Source: Candidatus Levyibacteriota bacterium (GTDB lineage Bacteria; Patescibacteriota; Microgenomatia; Levybacterales; UBA12049). Taken from it: a DNA stretch of 64,000 bases. The stretch covers positions 11,819 to 75,818 of the forward strand of contig JBBSGT010000001.1 of the NCBI GenBank assembly GCA_038253825.1, in the 5' to 3' direction. Every line of letters begins with the position of its first letter. Position 1 is the stretch's first letter. The position numbers are program-made. Shown in pieces: positions 1-6,000 of the stretch.

Positions 1-3000
1 AGTATATTTTTTTTGTTAGTTTTGTTTTCATAAAATTATTTACTGTATGGAATAATTTGGTTGTTATATAAAGCAGCACCAAACCACAACCAATTTTGTT
101 CATAGTAGCCTATATCATCCCGAAACGTGTTTTGATCATTCGAGTACAATTTTAAGATTTTATCTTGATAAATTTCTTTTGCAACTTCCGGCTTTTCAAC
201 AATAAAATAGCCCATTCCTGCTCCATATGCTGTAGGGCTTTCATATGTTTGCACAGGCGTACCGTTATGTGTATAAGCCGCGTACAATTTGCCGTCTTTT
301 TTATATAACTTATCGATAATAGACAGTGAATCCAGATATGCCTTTGCTCGTGGATCTTTATTCCATATATAATCAAGTGAGATCCGCCAGGGTATTCGTA
401 CTGCATCATAGGAATAATTTGTCGTTAAATTTTGTAAATTAGTTGCACTGAGTTCGCCGGTTTTTTTATCGATCGCTACCCAATCTGGCGCCAAACCTAC
501 TGCATGATCCGCATCAAGTTTATTCTTGCTTGATGTATCTAATAGTGTATATGCGGGTGAAACGAGACTGTTCCAATCATTATTATCAACCTTTGCAAAG
601 ATTTTCCACGCATAAGGAGCGAAGTATGATGGATTAACAATAATTCGTTGCTGATCGCTTGCCCAATTTCCTGCAACAAGATATCGTTTACCATAGGCAG
701 TCGCTGTTTCCTTTTTCCATATATCATGAATAATCATTTTTGCCTGAACAAGATATGATTTTTCATTCCAGCGGTTTGCCGCAAAGACTAAAGCAAGCGC
801 GATATCAGTATCAGCATCAGAGGCTGAGTTATCTCCACCATTTTCTAAAGCACCATAAGTCCCATCGCCCCGTTTTCCCCATCTCCAAGTGAGGAGGGAA
901 TCGTCAGGTCTTTTCATATCAGCTTTTGTCCAGTTCCATACTTTATCAAACGTCTGTTTGTCATCTGACCAAACTGCACGTAATAATGCATAACTTTGCC
1001 CTTCTGAGGTTGTGATACTGTTTTGTGAATAATCAATTACTCGTCCATCAGAATTAATAAATTTTTCTTTATACTTTTCCCATGATGAGGTTAAGGTTGT
1101 ATATCCTGAAAATTGTTCTGTTTGATTATAATGAGAACTCGTCCTGTAAAAAGTAAATGCTAAAAGAGCAATACTTATAATAAGAAAAATAATGCCTAAC
1201 CGTTTCATGATATTCCTCCTTCTGATACAGTGTCTATAAATTTAGTAAATCTACTTTTTCCTTGGTTGAGAGAAGCATTGAAAAATTTATATATACTTCT
1301 ATTGAGAGATGAAAAAAACAGTTTTATATACTCGGTAGTGTGACTGATGACACTGAAGAGAAAAAACATGCCCGATAGAAAATAAATAAATGAGAGTGTC
1401 TTTTTCGGAAACGTGTCATCATGGTAATATTCCTTAGCAGATACATAAGCAAAATATTTCATATTAGGCACTTGCGATACAAGAGATAGCTTAGTCGATG
1501 TTTGATTTATGTTTTTAATCGTAATATCTTCATTCGGTACTAATAAGGATCGTTGGGAAGCATGAGCAGCCCCGACAAAATGGTGAGATAAAGAAATAAT
1601 AATAACTGCAGAGCAGATATAAAATATTATACTTTTAATAGTTCGATAAAACATGAACAGAGTATATTATTATAAGACGCTTATGTCAAGAGGCAATATA
1701 TATTAAATTTACTGGTCCTAGAAATATTTCTTACCACAATTGCTATATGTTAATACAAAGTGTTTCTGAATTAACCCGAAATATATATAATTTTATTACT
1801 TTATTTTTTTGTATAAATATGTAACTACTAATAATATAAGCCTTATTAAATACACATCTATAACATATATAATAGTATACTTATAGCATATGTCGCGTTA
1901 TTATCGCTTGAAGAAATACGAAATACTATCATGATTCTCAAATTCTGATACTATAGACCTATAGAGATTGCTACTTGACATTTAAAAGAACCTATAATAT
2001 AATCCAAACATGAATAACAAAAAGATTAGAAAAGTTGTCATACCCGCTGCTGGTTTCGGCACCAGATTTTTGCCACAAACAAAAGCAATGCCAAAGGAGA
2101 TGCTGCCCATCGTTGACAAACCAGTTATACAATATGTTGTTGAAGAGGCAATAGCATCAGGGATTGAGGATGTTATTATCGTGACAGGTGCTCTCAAAAG
2201 AGCGATAGAAGATCATTTCGACAGTCCGAATGCAGACCTTATTCAAAATCTTGTTGCAGGAGGGAAAGACAAACTCCTTGAAGAAACCCGAAAGCTTTCA
2301 GCATTGGCCAATTTTATCTATATCCGTCAGCAAGGCATGTATGGCAATGGCACACCTGTATTATCTGCGGAGCCAGTTATCGAAAAAGAACCTTTTGCAG
2401 TTATGTGGGGCGATGAGTTCATTTATAGTACGCCTCCAAGACTTGCTCAAATGATAAAAGTATATGAAAAATATGGTGGAGCAGTTATTTCAGCCGTAAG
2501 AATTAATAGGGAAGCAGATTTAGTGCGCTACGGAATCGCTGATGTCGAGAAAGTAGACGGTAATGTTTTCAAAATTAAAAAAATTGTTGAAAAACCAGAA
2601 CTTGGGACAGCGCCATCAAATCTTGCAACCCATGGTGCATATATTCTCCCGCCTGAAATTTTTGAAATCTTACGCAATCAAAAACCAGGAAAAGGTGGAG
2701 AAATCTATTTACCTGAAGCAATTGATGCGCTTATCAAAACAGGCTATCCAGTCTATGCATGTGAAATCGAAAATGGAAAATATTATGATACCGGCAACAA
2801 GCTGGAGTATATGAAAACTACCGTTGAATTAGCTTTACAACATAAGGATTTAAATGGAGAGTTCAGACAATTTCTCAAAGACCTAAAGCTTTAATAACTT
2901 TTATAGCCTCATAGTAATTACTAAATAAACCTATAATATACGTTCAGAGGTCTGAGCAAAAAATATATTATTCAGAAGCTTTAAATTTCTCCAAGGCTCC

Positions 3001-6000
3001 CCATTGTTTGCCAATTTTTACATCCACTTCAAGTGGTACGGAAAGAGGGTACACTGAACATAAGACATCCTTTATTGCTGTGATAATTTCATAGAGCTTC
3101 TCTTTGTCAGTATCAGGTATCTCAAACACTAAATCATCATGAATTGTTAAGAGCAGCGAAATGTCTAGAAATTGTGTGAGGATTTTTTGATCAATATCTA
3201 CCATGGATCGGCGCATCAGATCCGCGGCTGTTCCTTGTATTGGATAATTCATGAGAATCCGTCGCATACTGTTATCAATAAATTTCCGCCTTGGATCCTC
3301 AAAGACATACCGTCTACGTCCAAGCAACGTCTCCACAAATCCATGAATTCGAGCGTTTTTGAGGTACATATCATAATAGGTTTTTATATATGGATAGGAA
3401 GCATAAAATTGCTGTATGAATTGTTCTGCATCCTCTTGAGGAATATGAAGACCAGCACTCAGTCCATAGCTGCTCATGCCGTAGATAATACCAAAATTGA
3501 TGGTTTTACCGACTGTTCGTTGTTGTGGTGATACTTGGTCATATGCAACGTCAAATAATCGGCTAGCCGTCAAGCTATGCACATCCTGATCATTTTCAAA
3601 AGCTTTAATCAATTCTTTTTCCTGCGCAAGATGTGCGAGAATTCGAAGCTCTTGTTGCGAATAATCAAAAGAAACAAGTATATGATCCGGGGAAGCGATA
3701 AAGCATGATTTGATCTCAAGTCCGATCTCGGATGAAACAGGAATGTTTTGCAAATTTGGATTTGAAGAAGCAATGCGTCCGGTATTCACGAGTACTTGGT
3801 TATATGTTGTATGGATTCTACTTTCTTCATCCACTTTTTGAATAAGGCTTTCAACATATGTCGAGCGTAGTTTGGTTAACTCGCGGTATGTTAAAAGATT
3901 GGCAATAATAGGAAACTCCTGCACAAACCGTGAAAGTTCTCCTTCGTTTGTAGCATATCTTCCAGTTTTTGTTCTTCCCAGTGGAATACCCATTTTTTCA
4001 GCCAAAAAAGTACCTAGTTGTATCGGAGAATTAATACTAATATCGCTGCCTATTTCTGCAATTATCTTTCCTTCAACTTCGCTTATCAGTTGATCTATAT
4101 TTTTACCAACTTGCGACAAATGATTCGTATCGAGCAAAATCCCTCGTTGTTCCATTTGCCAGAGTACCTTCGAGAGGGGCATTTCGATATCATAGAAAAG
4201 AGATTTTAGCTTCGGATATGTCTCAAGTTTTTCTTTCTGTTTCTGGGCAAGCTCCACAACTGTGGTAGCGCTATACCGTTTCATTGTTTCATCAAGCGTC
4301 CCAAAAGAATGGCCTTCAGCCAACAGAGCTTCAGCAATGTAACAATCAAAGTCAGTATCAAAATTATTGGAAGTTTTACTGTCCCACACTGGATTTCTCA
4401 TGGAGCTAGTATACACCCAATGGACTATAAAATTTCTAATAATTTCCCTATTTCAAAATTTCTGATATAATCAAAGATAAGAAAGGAGAAGTAATCTATG
4501 AAAGGAACAATCAAAACAAAGCTGGACAAGGGATTTGGGTTCATTAGTCGCGAAGGCGAATCTAAGGATCTTTTTTTTCATTCCAATGATTTGCAGGGAA
4601 TTACCTTTGATGAAATTCAAGTAGGTGACACTGTTACCTTTGAAATCGTCAATGGCGATCGAGGTCCAAGCGCAAAAAATGTAGCACGCGCTTAGTCGCT
4701 TAGCTAATTTACTCAAAAAGCTCCGCAAGGGGCTTTTTTTGTATTATATGTGGATTTAGGCATCCTTGCAGATTATGTTTCCCTGAACGATACCTGAAAC
4801 GCAGTGATGCCAAACTTGTGCCACAAAACCTTACTTGAATGCAACAATAACGGTGGGCAATCTAACGCCACTTTGAGGTTGCCATGTGACTCGATTTTCA
4901 CCTAATCTATCGGAGTCTTTGTGGCCAGATAAAGCGCCTTTTGACAGAGTGGGTTTGGGGCCGTTCAAAACCGTGTTTGAATTTATTATATGTCCATTGG
5001 AATCGTAGATAGTAGTGAAAGGTGAAAGACTTCGCGCGATATCAATGCTTCCTGAAATTGTTGCTTTTCCATCATGATCGAGTGTAACAGCCAAATCCTC
5101 AGCCATTTGGATCTGTGGGTCATTTGCGCTCATGCGGATATCGTGTTGGACAACAAAAGACGAGTGCTGAAATTCCAGTTGCGAGTGGTATCCAAAGACG
5201 TATGACGCGGATAAAATGAGAATCCATGTATTTGTTATATCGCAAAACGATATATTATCAATTGATATATATTTAATTACTCCCATCCAGAGAGAAACGA
5301 GTTTTTCCTCCCGTTTCTCTCTTTAGAGATTGATGATTAATTATTATCCTCTCCTTCTTTTACCCGTTGTTTATCAGGTTGCTCTTTTTCACCACTATCA
5401 GCTGTCTGATTTGTAGCTTTTGCTTGATTCTGATTTACCGCATCATCTTGCGTTTCTTTATCAGGACTAGCTTGTTGCGGGGTCGTAGTAACCGACGCAG
5501 CGTGAGCAGTAATGGGTCCACTATGAGAAATAGTATATGTTGCTCCTGCGATACCTACTATTGCTAACGCAATGACTGGGATGACAATTTTCTTATTAAA
5601 TTTTTCTTGCATACTTATCACCTCCTTTCTGTATTAATTCTAGAGAAATAGAGATGAGAGGAAGGTGGGAATAGATTAAGAATCTTAGGCTTTGGGGAGA
5701 ATAATAGTAAAAGTAGACCCCTGCTTTACCTTTGAATCGATTAGTATTTTTCCGTTATGTCTTGCAATAATTGTTCTCACAATGGCAAGTCCAAGACCAT
5801 ATCCTTTGGGTTGCGATCGGGAAGCATCAACCCGATAGAAGCGTCTCATGATTTTTTTTATATCAGAAGTATTTATACCAATTCCTGTATCTTGAATTGC
5901 AATAACTACCATATTCTTACGCTCGGTTATAGTAATCTTAATCTTGCCGCGTTCAGACGTATAGATAATCGCGTTATCAAGTAAATTATAAAAGAGTTGC

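What the first reader, a model, noticed from the sequence alone, without database searches (positions are those of the whole stretch)
2968..4416. Stand-alone DNA polymerase I polymerase domain without exonuclease domains
The 482-aa ORF contains only the family-A polymerase domain (motifs A, B and C present). Its upstream neighbour is a divergent csp gene, so the 5'-3' exonuclease (FEN) and 3'-5' exonuclease parts are not encoded adjacently. Either they are encoded elsewhere as separate genes or they have been lost. This is relevant for replication and repair fidelity.
Basis: partly seen in the sequence, partly recalled or inferred. Interest (0 to 1): 0.5.

Follow-up and report, generated by a model that had tools for sequence, protein, structure and literature searches.

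The report
Polymerase-only Pol I of CPR bacteria
This is a real, intact gene for a shortened DNA polymerase I, with no 5' nuclease and almost no proofreading domain; this form is standard in a large clade of tiny "candidate phyla radiation" bacteria, whose relatives carry the 5' nuclease as a separate small gene.

Summary
Window 2968-4401 (-) encodes a 477-aa family-A DNA polymerase; the 482-aa ORF runs to a GTG at 4416, but homologues start at the ATG at 4401. Motifs A, B and C are intact, there is no FEN domain, and only a ~60-aa relic of the C-terminal half of the 3'-5' exonuclease domain remains.

It is neither a misassembly nor a pseudogene. An independent NCBI MAG contig (Candidatus Levyibacteriota) has the same csp-polA-galU arrangement. 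The 120 best homologue clusters (58-100% identity) are 435-517 aa, all but one 466-517, with PF00476 as their only domain. Every complete relative has an upstream stop and unrelated neighbours. The family is one clade in a rough NJ tree.

It is the Pol I orthologue in reduced form: NCBIfam Pol I positions 461-887 of 889, below the equivalog cut-off. Proofreading was lost, not relocated. The FEN is most likely encoded elsewhere. Stand-alone ~300-aa FENs with all catalytic carboxylates are common in Microgenomates. I could not search the rest of this genome, so FEN presence here is inferred.

By-catch: 80% of those solo FENs end in a QxxL[F/L/I] peptide resembling a beta-clamp-binding motif.

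Modest interest; a lineage-wide variant of a known enzyme that two recent PolA surveys do not describe.

The parts
2968..4401 (-). polA gene, polymerase-only form: 477 codons plus stop
4402..4416 (-). Five extra codons of the longest ORF (GTG start), probably not translated
   Evidence: Homologue N-termini align with the ATG at 4401 (MxxxVWD). The NCBI gene call is 477 aa. A stop lies 17 codons upstream of the ATG.
4222..4401 (-). Relic of the C-terminal half of the 3'-5' exonuclease domain (residues 1-60), non-catalytic
   Evidence: Klenow and Bst alignments place the start of the polymerase domain at about residue 57-71. The 'FD' at residues 18-19 aligns with E. coli FDTM; ~35 aa including the Exo III YxxxD are deleted and Exo I is absent. 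W6, D7, K9, D19 and L26 are invariant across 50 homologues. Mean column conservation is 0.64, against 0.735 for the polymerase domain. The model has two short strands and four helices here, pLDDT 85-97.
2971..4221 (-). Family-A polymerase domain (thumb, palm, fingers), residues 61-477
   Evidence: phmmer against PDB: residues 71-472 match Bst large fragment at E 6e-99, and 63-474 match KlenTaq. Foldseek TM 0.86-0.89.
3643..3666 (-). Motif A, DYSQQELR (catalytic Asp and steric-gate Glu)
   Evidence: Translation. Present in 119 of 120 homologues.
3478..3519 (-). Motif B, RTVGKTINFGIIYG (O-helix Arg, Lys, Phe, Tyr)
   Evidence: Translation. Present in 118 of 120 homologues.
3133..3141 (-). Motif C, HDD (canonical Pol I has HDE)
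   Evidence: Translation. HD[DE] is present in 118 of 120 homologues and HDD in 114.
4498..4695 (+). Divergent upstream neighbour: cold-shock protein gene with a terminator-like hairpin at 4715-4738
   Evidence: PF00313. Terminator-like site. Same neighbour in the independent NCBI contig L001.
2010..2894 (+). Convergent downstream neighbour: GalU-like nucleotidyltransferase (context only)
   Evidence: PF00483. Same neighbour in L001.
48642..49268 (+). RNase HII gene: a likely partner in RNA-primer removal, unlinked to polA (context only)
   Evidence: PF01351, E 5.4e-37. The functional link is inference from the standard bacterial Okazaki-maturation model (PMC10191290).

Best explanation
The gene encodes the DNA polymerase I orthologue of a Levyibacteria/Microgenomates (CPR) bacterium, in a reduced form that is fixed across that clade. 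It consists of a complete, catalytically competent family-A polymerase domain preceded by a ~60-residue structural remnant of the 3'-5' exonuclease domain. The remnant probably survives because those helices pack against the polymerase domain (inferred). The enzyme should fill gaps in Okazaki-fragment maturation and excision repair without proofreading (inferred from intact motifs and fold). Removal of RNA primers and 5' flaps is done in trans by a separately encoded ~300-aa FEN. That arrangement is shown for Microgenomates relatives and inferred for this genome. The FEN probably works together with RNase HII and is probably recruited through a C-terminal beta-clamp-binding peptide rather than by fusion to the polymerase (inferred from a motif). 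The likely history is a full-length Pol I with an already inactive exonuclease domain and a clamp-binding motif in the FEN-exo linker, then gene fission after that motif, then trimming of the dead exonuclease domain.
For: The gene is real and intact, and an independent assembly has the same arrangement. The 120 best homologue clusters are 435-517 aa (119 of them 466-517) with PF00476 only, at 58-100% identity. All complete relatives in fetched loci are 471-507 aa, with an upstream in-frame stop at most 51 codons before the start codon. Canonical PolAs (49% identity or less) are 834-1049 aa. The family is monophyletic in an NJ tree. NCBIfam Pol I is the best match, over positions 461-887 of 889. 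Motifs A, B and C are conserved in 118-119 of 120 homologues. The AF2 model has pLDDT 91.3 and superposes on KlenTaq, Klenow and Bst large fragment. The relic maps to the Exo II-to-Exo III region, has lost the catalytic motifs, and is conserved. The nearest full-length relatives L024, L030, L028 and L025 have degenerate Exo motifs. Solo FENs of 294-340 aa with PF02739+PF01367 only occur in Beckwith-, Woese- and Shapirobacteria, Microgenomates DG_75, CPR3 and 'Patescibacteria group' records. In these, D8, D58, E108, D110, D111, D130, D132, D181 and D184 are invariant. They match Pol I model positions 1-298. They are free-standing genes next to unrelated genes. 172 of 216 end in QxxL[F/L/I], on a tail predicted to be disordered. 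L024 has QSSLF in its FEN-exo linker. A survey of over 3000 complete genomes found a solo FEN in nearly every bacterium whose Pol I lacks or is missing the FEN domain (PMC12926913).
Against: No FEN gene was found for this organism. None is present in the 64-kb window or in ~225 kb around pol-only genes of relatives, and the rest of the MAG could not be searched. No FEN hit was named Levyibacteriota, and none shared a contig with a pol-only polA. A second, canonical PolA elsewhere in the genome cannot be excluded. Polymerase activity, absence of proofreading and clamp binding are all predictions. Motif C is HDD rather than HDE, with unknown consequences.
Confidence: 0.75

Rival explanations
1. 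It is an assembly artefact, a truncated gene call or a decaying pseudogene, and the true gene is a full-length polA whose 5' part was lost by misassembly near 4416-4500.
For: Only the short length compared with canonical Pol I, and the score below the NCBIfam equivalog cut-off (516 bits against 720).
Against: An independently assembled NCBI MAG contig has the identical csp-polA-galU arrangement. 120 homologue clusters share the same length class and the same N-terminus. 19 related loci have unrelated upstream genes and upstream stops. Catalytic motifs and the relic are under clear conservation. The model is confidently folded.
Confidence: 0.01
2. It is an accessory or mobile-element/phage-derived family-A polymerase (like CCPol, PolA3 or T7-like split polymerases) that coexists with a normal Pol I elsewhere in the genome.
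For: Exo-truncated PolAs are otherwise known from mobile elements (CCPol, PMC10201439). A type IV coupling protein gene lies at the far end of the window. The full genome was not available.
Against: The best family match is bacterial Pol I (516 bits), against 135 bits for phage DpoZ. Identity to phage records is 42% or less, no better than to Taq or Bst Pol I. The neighbours are housekeeping genes, differ between relatives, and include no MP, helicase, integrase or exo gene. The gene is vertically conserved in a large clade with host-like GC of 0.34-0.41. Solo FENs in the same class imply that Pol I is split there.
Confidence: 0.06
3. This lineage has lost the FEN function altogether, as in a few extremely reduced endosymbionts, and primers are removed by RNase HII plus strand displacement or another nuclease.
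For: No FEN was found in the 289 kb examined from this family. CPR genomes are reduced. Five endosymbionts lack any FEN (PMC12926913).
Against: 289 kb is pooled from about 15-20 different genomes: 64 kb of this one and at most ~21 kb of each relative. Under random placement of one FEN per ~1-Mb genome, only about 0.3 hits would be expected, so the negative is uninformative. Solo FENs are abundant in sister Microgenomates lineages. FEN is present in 99.8% of surveyed bacteria and is essential where tested (PMC12926913, PMC10191290). This genome keeps MutS/L, UvrA/C and glycosylases, which shows it is not extremely reduced.
Confidence: 0.1
4. Proofreading is supplied in trans: a separately encoded DnaQ-like 3'-5' exonuclease docks onto the conserved exonuclease relic, giving a split exo/pol enzyme like the T7-like split PolAs.
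For: The relic is conserved, with invariant W6, D7, K9 and D19. Split exo/pol genes exist in T7-like phages, and CCPol uses its exo remnant to bind a partner protein (PMC10201439).
Against: No exo gene is adjacent in any of 19 loci. The nearest full-length relatives already have dead exo domains, so activity was lost before truncation. About half of all bacterial Pol I enzymes lack proofreading (PMC12926913). The relic as a query found only fragments of the same family.
Confidence: 0.05

Closest known systems
Canonical bacterial DNA polymerase I (E. coli PolA, Taq, Bst; NCBIfam NF004397 / TIGR00593; 'PolA1' in PMC12926913)
   Same: Orthologous polymerase domain at 38-41% identity, with the same fold and motifs A, B and C.
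   Different: It lacks the ~300-aa FEN domain and about 160 aa of the 3'-5' exonuclease domain. It scores below the equivalog cut-offs. Motif C is HDD, not HDE.
Laboratory large fragments: Klenow, KlenTaq/Stoffel, Bst large fragment
   Same: Polymerase without FEN. KlenTaq and Bst large fragment also lack proofreading. The model superposes over 455-492 positions.
   Different: Those fragments keep a whole (active or vestigial) exonuclease-fold domain and are 540-605 aa. This natural protein starts inside that domain, at about the Exo II position, and is about 60-125 aa shorter.
Natural FEN-less Pol I of Aquificae (Aquifex pyrophilus Pol1, PDB 8jrb, 574-597 aa)
   Different: The Aquifex enzyme retains a full exonuclease-domain-sized N-terminal part (chain 574-597 aa), and identity is only 28%. 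That Aquificae encode the 5' nuclease separately is from my memory and was not checked here.
CCPol, the exo-truncated family-A polymerase of staphylococcal mobile elements (PMC10201439)
   Same: A truncated exonuclease domain of which only a few helices remain, with no adjacent gene for the missing part.
   Different: CCPol belongs with the CHEAP subfamily, sits in mobile elements, and works with the MP protein and Cch2 helicase as a primase-polymerase. Here the closest family is Pol I, the context is chromosomal housekeeping, and no such partners are adjacent.
Split T7-like phage PolA with exo and pol as adjacent genes (PMC10201439)
   Same: The polymerase domain is encoded alone.
   Different: In those phages the exo gene lies immediately upstream after a frameshift. 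Here nothing homologous is adjacent, and most of the exo domain is simply gone.
Bacteria with a solo FEN and no Pol I (many Tenericutes and Verrucomicrobia, PMC12926913) and B. subtilis FenA (PMC10191290)
   Same: The 5' flap nuclease acts as an independent protein.
   Different: Those lineages either lack the polymerase or have FenA in addition to a full Pol I. Here the polymerase is kept as its own gene. The CPR solo FENs resemble the Pol I FEN domain more than Xni (330 against 174 bits) and carry a C-terminal clamp-motif-like peptide.

Membership tests
Family A DNA polymerases (Pfam PF00476) | Polymerase domain scoring above the Pfam gathering threshold | tested here: met
   415 bits against a cut-off of 34.3, covering profile positions 2-380 of 381.
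Family A DNA polymerases (Pfam PF00476) | Catalytic motifs A (DYSQxELR), B (RxxxKxxNFGxxYG) and C (HDE/HDD) | tested here: met
   All three are present in the window protein and in 118-119 of 120 homologues.
Bacterial DNA polymerase I equivalog (NCBIfam NF004397 / TIGR00593) | Whole-protein score above the curated equivalog cut-off | tested here: not met
   516.5 bits against 720, and 504.1 against 600. Only model positions 461-888 are matched.
Bacterial DNA polymerase I equivalog (NCBIfam NF004397 / TIGR00593) | [quoted passage not shown] | tested here: not met
   No Pfam hit. A stop lies 17 codons upstream of the start. tblastn is negative in the window, while the same queries hit 59 canonical PolA loci.
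Bacterial DNA polymerase I equivalog (NCBIfam NF004397 / TIGR00593) | Complete DnaQ-like 3'-5' exonuclease-fold domain, active or vestigial | tested here: not met
   Only ~60 residues remain. Exo I is absent and the Exo III YxxxD is deleted. No PF01612 hit.
Bacterial DNA polymerase I equivalog (NCBIfam NF004397 / TIGR00593) | Orthology of the polymerase domain: best match among PolA families, inherited vertically | tested here: met
   Pol I models score far above the exo/pol bifunctional and phage DpoZ models. The family forms one clade among Pol I sequences (NJ without bootstrap support values).
CCPol-type exo-truncated PolA of mobile elements | Truncated exo domain retaining a few helices | tested here: met
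   The model shows helices at residues 8-11, 20-27, 36-42 and 48-60 before the polymerase domain.
CCPol-type exo-truncated PolA of mobile elements | Location in a mobile element with MP and Cch2 helicase partners | tested here: not met
   The neighbours are csp, galU-like and two-component genes, and they vary among relatives.
Split exo/pol PolA (T7-like) | 3'-5' exonuclease gene immediately adjacent to the pol gene | tested here: not met
   No exo homology in the flanks of 19 pol-only loci.
Split Pol I system: pol-only gene plus solo FEN gene in one genome | A stand-alone FEN gene in the same genome | not testable with these tools
   The rest of MAG GCA_050997215.1 could not be searched. Solo FENs were found in related Microgenomates, but none could be tied to a genome carrying the pol-only gene.

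The most novel reading that the evidence does not exclude
Microgenomates and related CPR bacteria may have reorganised lagging-strand maturation into an archaeal/eukaryote-like arrangement. A free FEN would be tethered to the sliding clamp by a C-terminal QxxLF peptide, analogous to the PIP box of FEN1. It would work beside a separate, non-proofreading, minimal Pol I whose conserved exonuclease relic (invariant W6, D7, K9, D19) may serve as a docking surface for a partner such as the FEN or the clamp. This would be a natural split Pol I arising from fission at a linker clamp-binding motif.
Probability: 0.3. Interest if true: 0.55.

Novelty: new variant of a known kind. Interest (0 to 1): 0.33.

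Why it matters
Pol I is usually treated as a three-domain enzyme. Its length and equivalog models are also used for genome annotation and as a phylogenetic marker (TIGR00593). Here a large, abundant bacterial clade carries a ~475-aa polymerase-only orthologue that fails those models. That explains the bare 'DNA polymerase' annotations, and it may affect marker-based completeness estimates for such genomes. Biologically, gap filling in these organisms would be non-proofread. If the inferred solo FEN is present, polymerase and flap nuclease are also uncoupled, which bears on the mutation rates and replication mechanics of CPR bacteria. The protein is also a natural minimal family-A polymerase, shorter than KlenTaq, which may interest enzyme engineers. 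None of this overturns current understanding, because split and exo-dead Pol I forms are known in other lineages.

Tried and rejected
1. Searching for the FEN of this genome. The target was the window plus ~225 kb around pol-only genes of relatives.

2. Extending the source contig beyond the window. The look-up returned only a 1.8-kb contig for one terminal gene and nothing for another.

3. The single genome-contig scan with the window protein gave only 4 loci, so GTDB genomes could not be used for co-occurrence.

4. Linking FEN and PolA hits by shared 'longest contig' lengths, names or accessions gave no match.

5. Judging which FEN clade is closest to Levyibacteria by comparing neighbouring genes of L091-L093 with the Levy-like loci found no shared orthologues.

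6. The literature searches found no paper describing polymerase-only Pol I in CPR/Patescibacteria/Microgenomates. The two PolA surveys do not mention these lineages.

7. A phmmer search with the 64-aa relic against 1.84 billion representatives returned 9 hits. Seven are same-family fragments of 55-284 aa. Two are long repeat-like proteins (1175 aa, E 5.8e-10, 13 matched stretches; 2803 aa, E 9.4e-05), which I take to be spurious. It showed no other context for the relic.

8. The AlphaFold-database fold library was unavailable.

9. The promoter scan of the region gave no more sites than shuffled sequence.

10. Phage origin was considered and rejected.

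
Full report
**What is in the sequence**

The ORF at 2968-4416 on the minus strand exists as described: 482 aa with a GTG start. Pfam finds a single domain, PF00476 DNA_pol_A, over residues 98-473 (E 2.9e-124). The upstream neighbour at 4498-4695 (+) is a divergent cold-shock gene. The downstream neighbour at 2010-2894 (+) is a convergent GalU-like nucleotidyltransferase.

The start is more likely the ATG at 4401, giving 477 aa. The NCBI gene call for the 100% identical protein is 477 aa (P0001, 'MAG: DNA polymerase [Candidatus Levyibacteriota bacterium]', accession MGI8420383.1). All homologues begin MxxxVWD at that position. An in-frame stop lies 17 codons upstream of the ATG, so no longer protein is possible.

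Motif A (DYSQQELR) is at 3643-3666. Motif B (RTVGKTINFGIIYG) is at 3478-3519. Motif C (HDD) is at 3133-3141.

**Not an artefact**

An independently assembled NCBI MAG contig (JBPCRD010000129.1, locus L001) has the identical csp-polA-galU order.

The 120 best homologue clusters, at 58-100% identity, are 435-517 aa, and 119 of them are 466-517 aa. All carry PF00476 as their only precomputed domain.

The fetched loci split cleanly into two classes:
- Pol-only relatives (52% identity or more, GC 0.34-0.41) have complete ORFs of 471-507 aa, with an in-frame stop at most 51 codons upstream of the start codon.
- Every hit at 49% identity or less with a complete gene is a canonical PolA of 834-1049 aa.

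In those canonical loci, my from-memory Taq and E. coli N-terminal queries found the FEN domain in 59 and the 3'-5' exonuclease domain in 43. This serves as a positive control for the negative results below. The upstream and downstream genes of the pol-only gene differ between relatives and are unrelated to nucleases. In a rough NJ tree of the polymerase domain (no bootstrap support values), the 30 pol-only sequences form one clade that excludes all 70 others.

**Anatomy**

phmmer against PDB sequences aligns residues 71-472 with the Bst large fragment (chain positions 175-576) and residues 52-473 with Klenow (chain positions 181-602). It aligns residues 63-474 with KlenTaq.

NCBIfam's full-length Pol I model NF004397 is matched only over positions 461-887 of 889, at 516 bits against a cut-off of 720. 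That explains the generic 'DNA polymerase' name.

The first ~60 residues are therefore not polymerase domain. In a MAFFT alignment with full-length relatives, the 'FD' at residues 18-19 falls on the universally conserved FDTM of E. coli. The next two helices are retained. About 35 residues, including the Exo III YxxxD, are deleted, and everything upstream of about the Exo II position (including Exo I) is absent.

This relic is conserved. W6, D7, K9, D19 and L26 are invariant in 50 sequences. Mean column conservation is 0.64, against 0.735 for the polymerase domain and similar to the thumb.

Motifs A, B and C are present in 118-119 of 120 homologues. Motif C is HDD in 114 of them, where canonical Pol I has HDE.

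**Where are the nucleases?**

*The 3'-5' exonuclease was lost rather than relocated.* No exo homology lies near any of 19 pol-only loci. The nearest full-length relatives (L024, L030, L028, L025) already have degenerate Exo I, II and III motifs, while the more distant L022 is intact. This points to inactivation first and trimming later. About half of bacterial Pol I enzymes lack proofreading residues anyway (PMC12926913).

*The FEN is absent from the sequence I could examine.* None of the window ORFs of 120 aa or more that I scanned with Pfam has a FEN or exo domain. tblastn with Taq and E. coli FEN and with 120 CPR FENs found nothing in the window plus ~225 kb around pol-only genes of relatives. 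This negative is uninformative. The sequence is pooled from about 15-20 genomes, and random placement of one FEN per ~1-Mb genome would predict only about 0.3 hits.

*Solo FENs are common in related lineages.* I searched with the FEN domain of the nearest full-length relative, L024. It returned mostly stand-alone proteins of about 294-340 aa with PF02739+PF01367 only. Their names include 'Patescibacteria group bacterium' and CPR3; two partial hits named Microgenomates (P0164) and Parcubacteria (P0126) continue past the FEN domain and look like fragments of longer PolAs.

A profile of one FEN clade then returned 120 more FEN-only proteins, almost all 302-381 aa. Named members are Candidatus Beckwithbacteria, Woesebacteria, Shapirobacteria and Microgenomates DG_75, all from the same class-level group as Levyibacteria.

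These FENs have every metal-binding carboxylate invariant: D8, D58, E108, D110, D111, D130, D132, D181 and D184. They match Pol I model positions 1-298 more strongly than Xni (330 against 174 bits). They are free-standing genes followed by unrelated genes, notably Fpg or HhH-GPD glycosylases.

Together, the solo FEN (model positions 1-298) and the pol-only protein (461-888) cover Pol I minus most of the exonuclease domain.

I could not show a FEN in this genome or in any genome that carries the pol-only gene. No hit was named Levyibacteriota, and no contig was shared between the two hit lists. That step rests on inference. It is supported by the survey finding that 99.8% of bacteria keep a FEN, as a solo gene when Pol I lacks it (PMC12926913), and by the essentiality of FEN activity (PMC10191290).

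**Mechanism proposed**

- Shown: an intact, conserved polymerase-only gene with a non-catalytic exo relic.
- Inferred from fold and motifs: an active, non-proofreading, gap-filling polymerase.
- Inferred from relatives: flap and primer removal by a separate FEN, aided by the RNase HII encoded at 48642-49268.
- Inferred from motif only: clamp tethering of the FEN. Of 216 solo-size FENs, 172 end in QxxL[F/L/I] (QMGLF, QLSLL, QMELF and similar), against 0 of 120 pol-only PolAs. The tail is predicted to be disordered. QLSLL is also the start of the clamp-binding stretch proposed for M. tuberculosis Pol I, QLSLLDD (bioRxiv 10.64898/2026.09.19.751633).

L024, and about 11 of the other 55 full-length PolAs examined, have a similar motif in the FEN-exo linker. 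That suggests fission just after a linker clamp motif.

**Comparison with what is known**

The protein works like Klenow-type fragments, but it is not a member of the Pol I equivalog as defined. Two of the three domains are absent or truncated, and the curated cut-offs are not reached.

- FEN-less natural Pol I exists in Aquificae (PDB 8jrb, 574-597 aa), but it keeps a full exo-sized domain.
- Exo-truncated PolAs are described only for CCPol of staphylococcal mobile elements, which keeps three exo helices and binds a partner. Exo-less pol genes are described for T7-like phages whose exo gene is adjacent (PMC10201439). Neither context applies here.
- The two recent PolA surveys do not mention CPR, Patescibacteria or Microgenomates, and my literature searches found no description.

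**Verdict**

It is a lineage-wide, database-visible variant rather than an anomaly: a new variant of a known kind, of modest interest (0.33). The most interesting thread is the by-catch, namely clamp-motif-bearing solo FENs and a possible fission history.

Noticed in passing
Proteins P0121-P0351 (not in the window); example loci L091 10001-10933, L092 10001-10918, L093 10001-10912: Stand-alone FENs of Patescibacteria/Microgenomates end in a C-terminal QxxL[F/L/I] pentapeptide (QMGLF, QLSLL, QMELF and similar) that looks like a beta-clamp-binding motif. 172 of 216 solo-size FENs have it, against 0 of 120 pol-only PolAs. The tail is predicted to be disordered. I found no paper describing a clamp motif on bacterial FENs.
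   Followed up: partly
L024 about 9390-9404 (protein residue 325), and L020, L070, L056, L084, L076, L081, L055, L034, L085: About 12 of 56 full-length metagenomic PolAs, mostly low-GC, carry a QxxLF-like motif in the linker between the FEN and exonuclease domains; E. coli and Taq do not. A recent preprint states that a Pol I clamp-binding motif, at a different position, is unique to Mycobacteriales.
   Followed up: partly
L091 10933-11778; L092 10946-11587; L093 12536-13375: Solo FEN genes sit next to, or within two genes of, base-excision glycosylase genes: Fpg in L091 and L093, HhH-GPD in L092. This hints at a repair operon.
   Followed up: no
window 3133-3141: Motif C is HDD rather than the canonical HDE in 114 of 120 family members. 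The consequence for catalysis or fidelity is unknown.
   Followed up: no
window 14845-19988, 33026-35938, 38248-39687, 48642-49268: The window is rich in repair genes: MutS, MutL and an HhH-GPD glycosylase in a row, plus UvrA, UvrC and RNase HII. This reduced genome keeps mismatch and excision repair, whose resynthesis steps would depend in part on the non-proofreading polymerase. The longest MutS ORF (GTG at 14845) overlaps the end of the ORF at 13893-14927, so its true start is probably further downstream.
   Followed up: no
window 21893-30958: A cluster of large surface proteins with WxL and WxL-interacting peptidoglycan-binding domains, SdrD B-like repeats and a LytR_C domain. As far as I recall, WxL systems are best known from Firmicutes.
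   Followed up: no
window 11188-13814: The PPDK_N ATP-binding domain and the PEP-utilizers mobile domain are encoded as two overlapping adjacent genes (12264-13814 and 11188-12267), with no catalytic C-terminal PEP/pyruvate domain detected.
   Followed up: no
window 19928-21745: A fused ATP sulfurylase / APS kinase (PUA_2 + ATP-sulfurylase + APS_kinase). Sulfate activation seems unexpected in a metabolically reduced CPR genome.
   Followed up: no
window 62151-63914: A VirD4/TraG-like type IV coupling protein gene. This is consistent with the report that thousands of such orphan T4CP genes occur in CPR genomes (bioRxiv 10.1101/2025.01.22.634366).
   Followed up: partly
L006, L007, L008 (record titles): The GTDB-representative MAG contigs carrying 66-76% identical pol-only polA genes are titled 'uncultured Gammaproteobacteria bacterium'. 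Other close homologues are labelled Saccharimonadales or Acidoferrales. These are probably taxonomic mislabels of Microgenomates bins.
   Followed up: no
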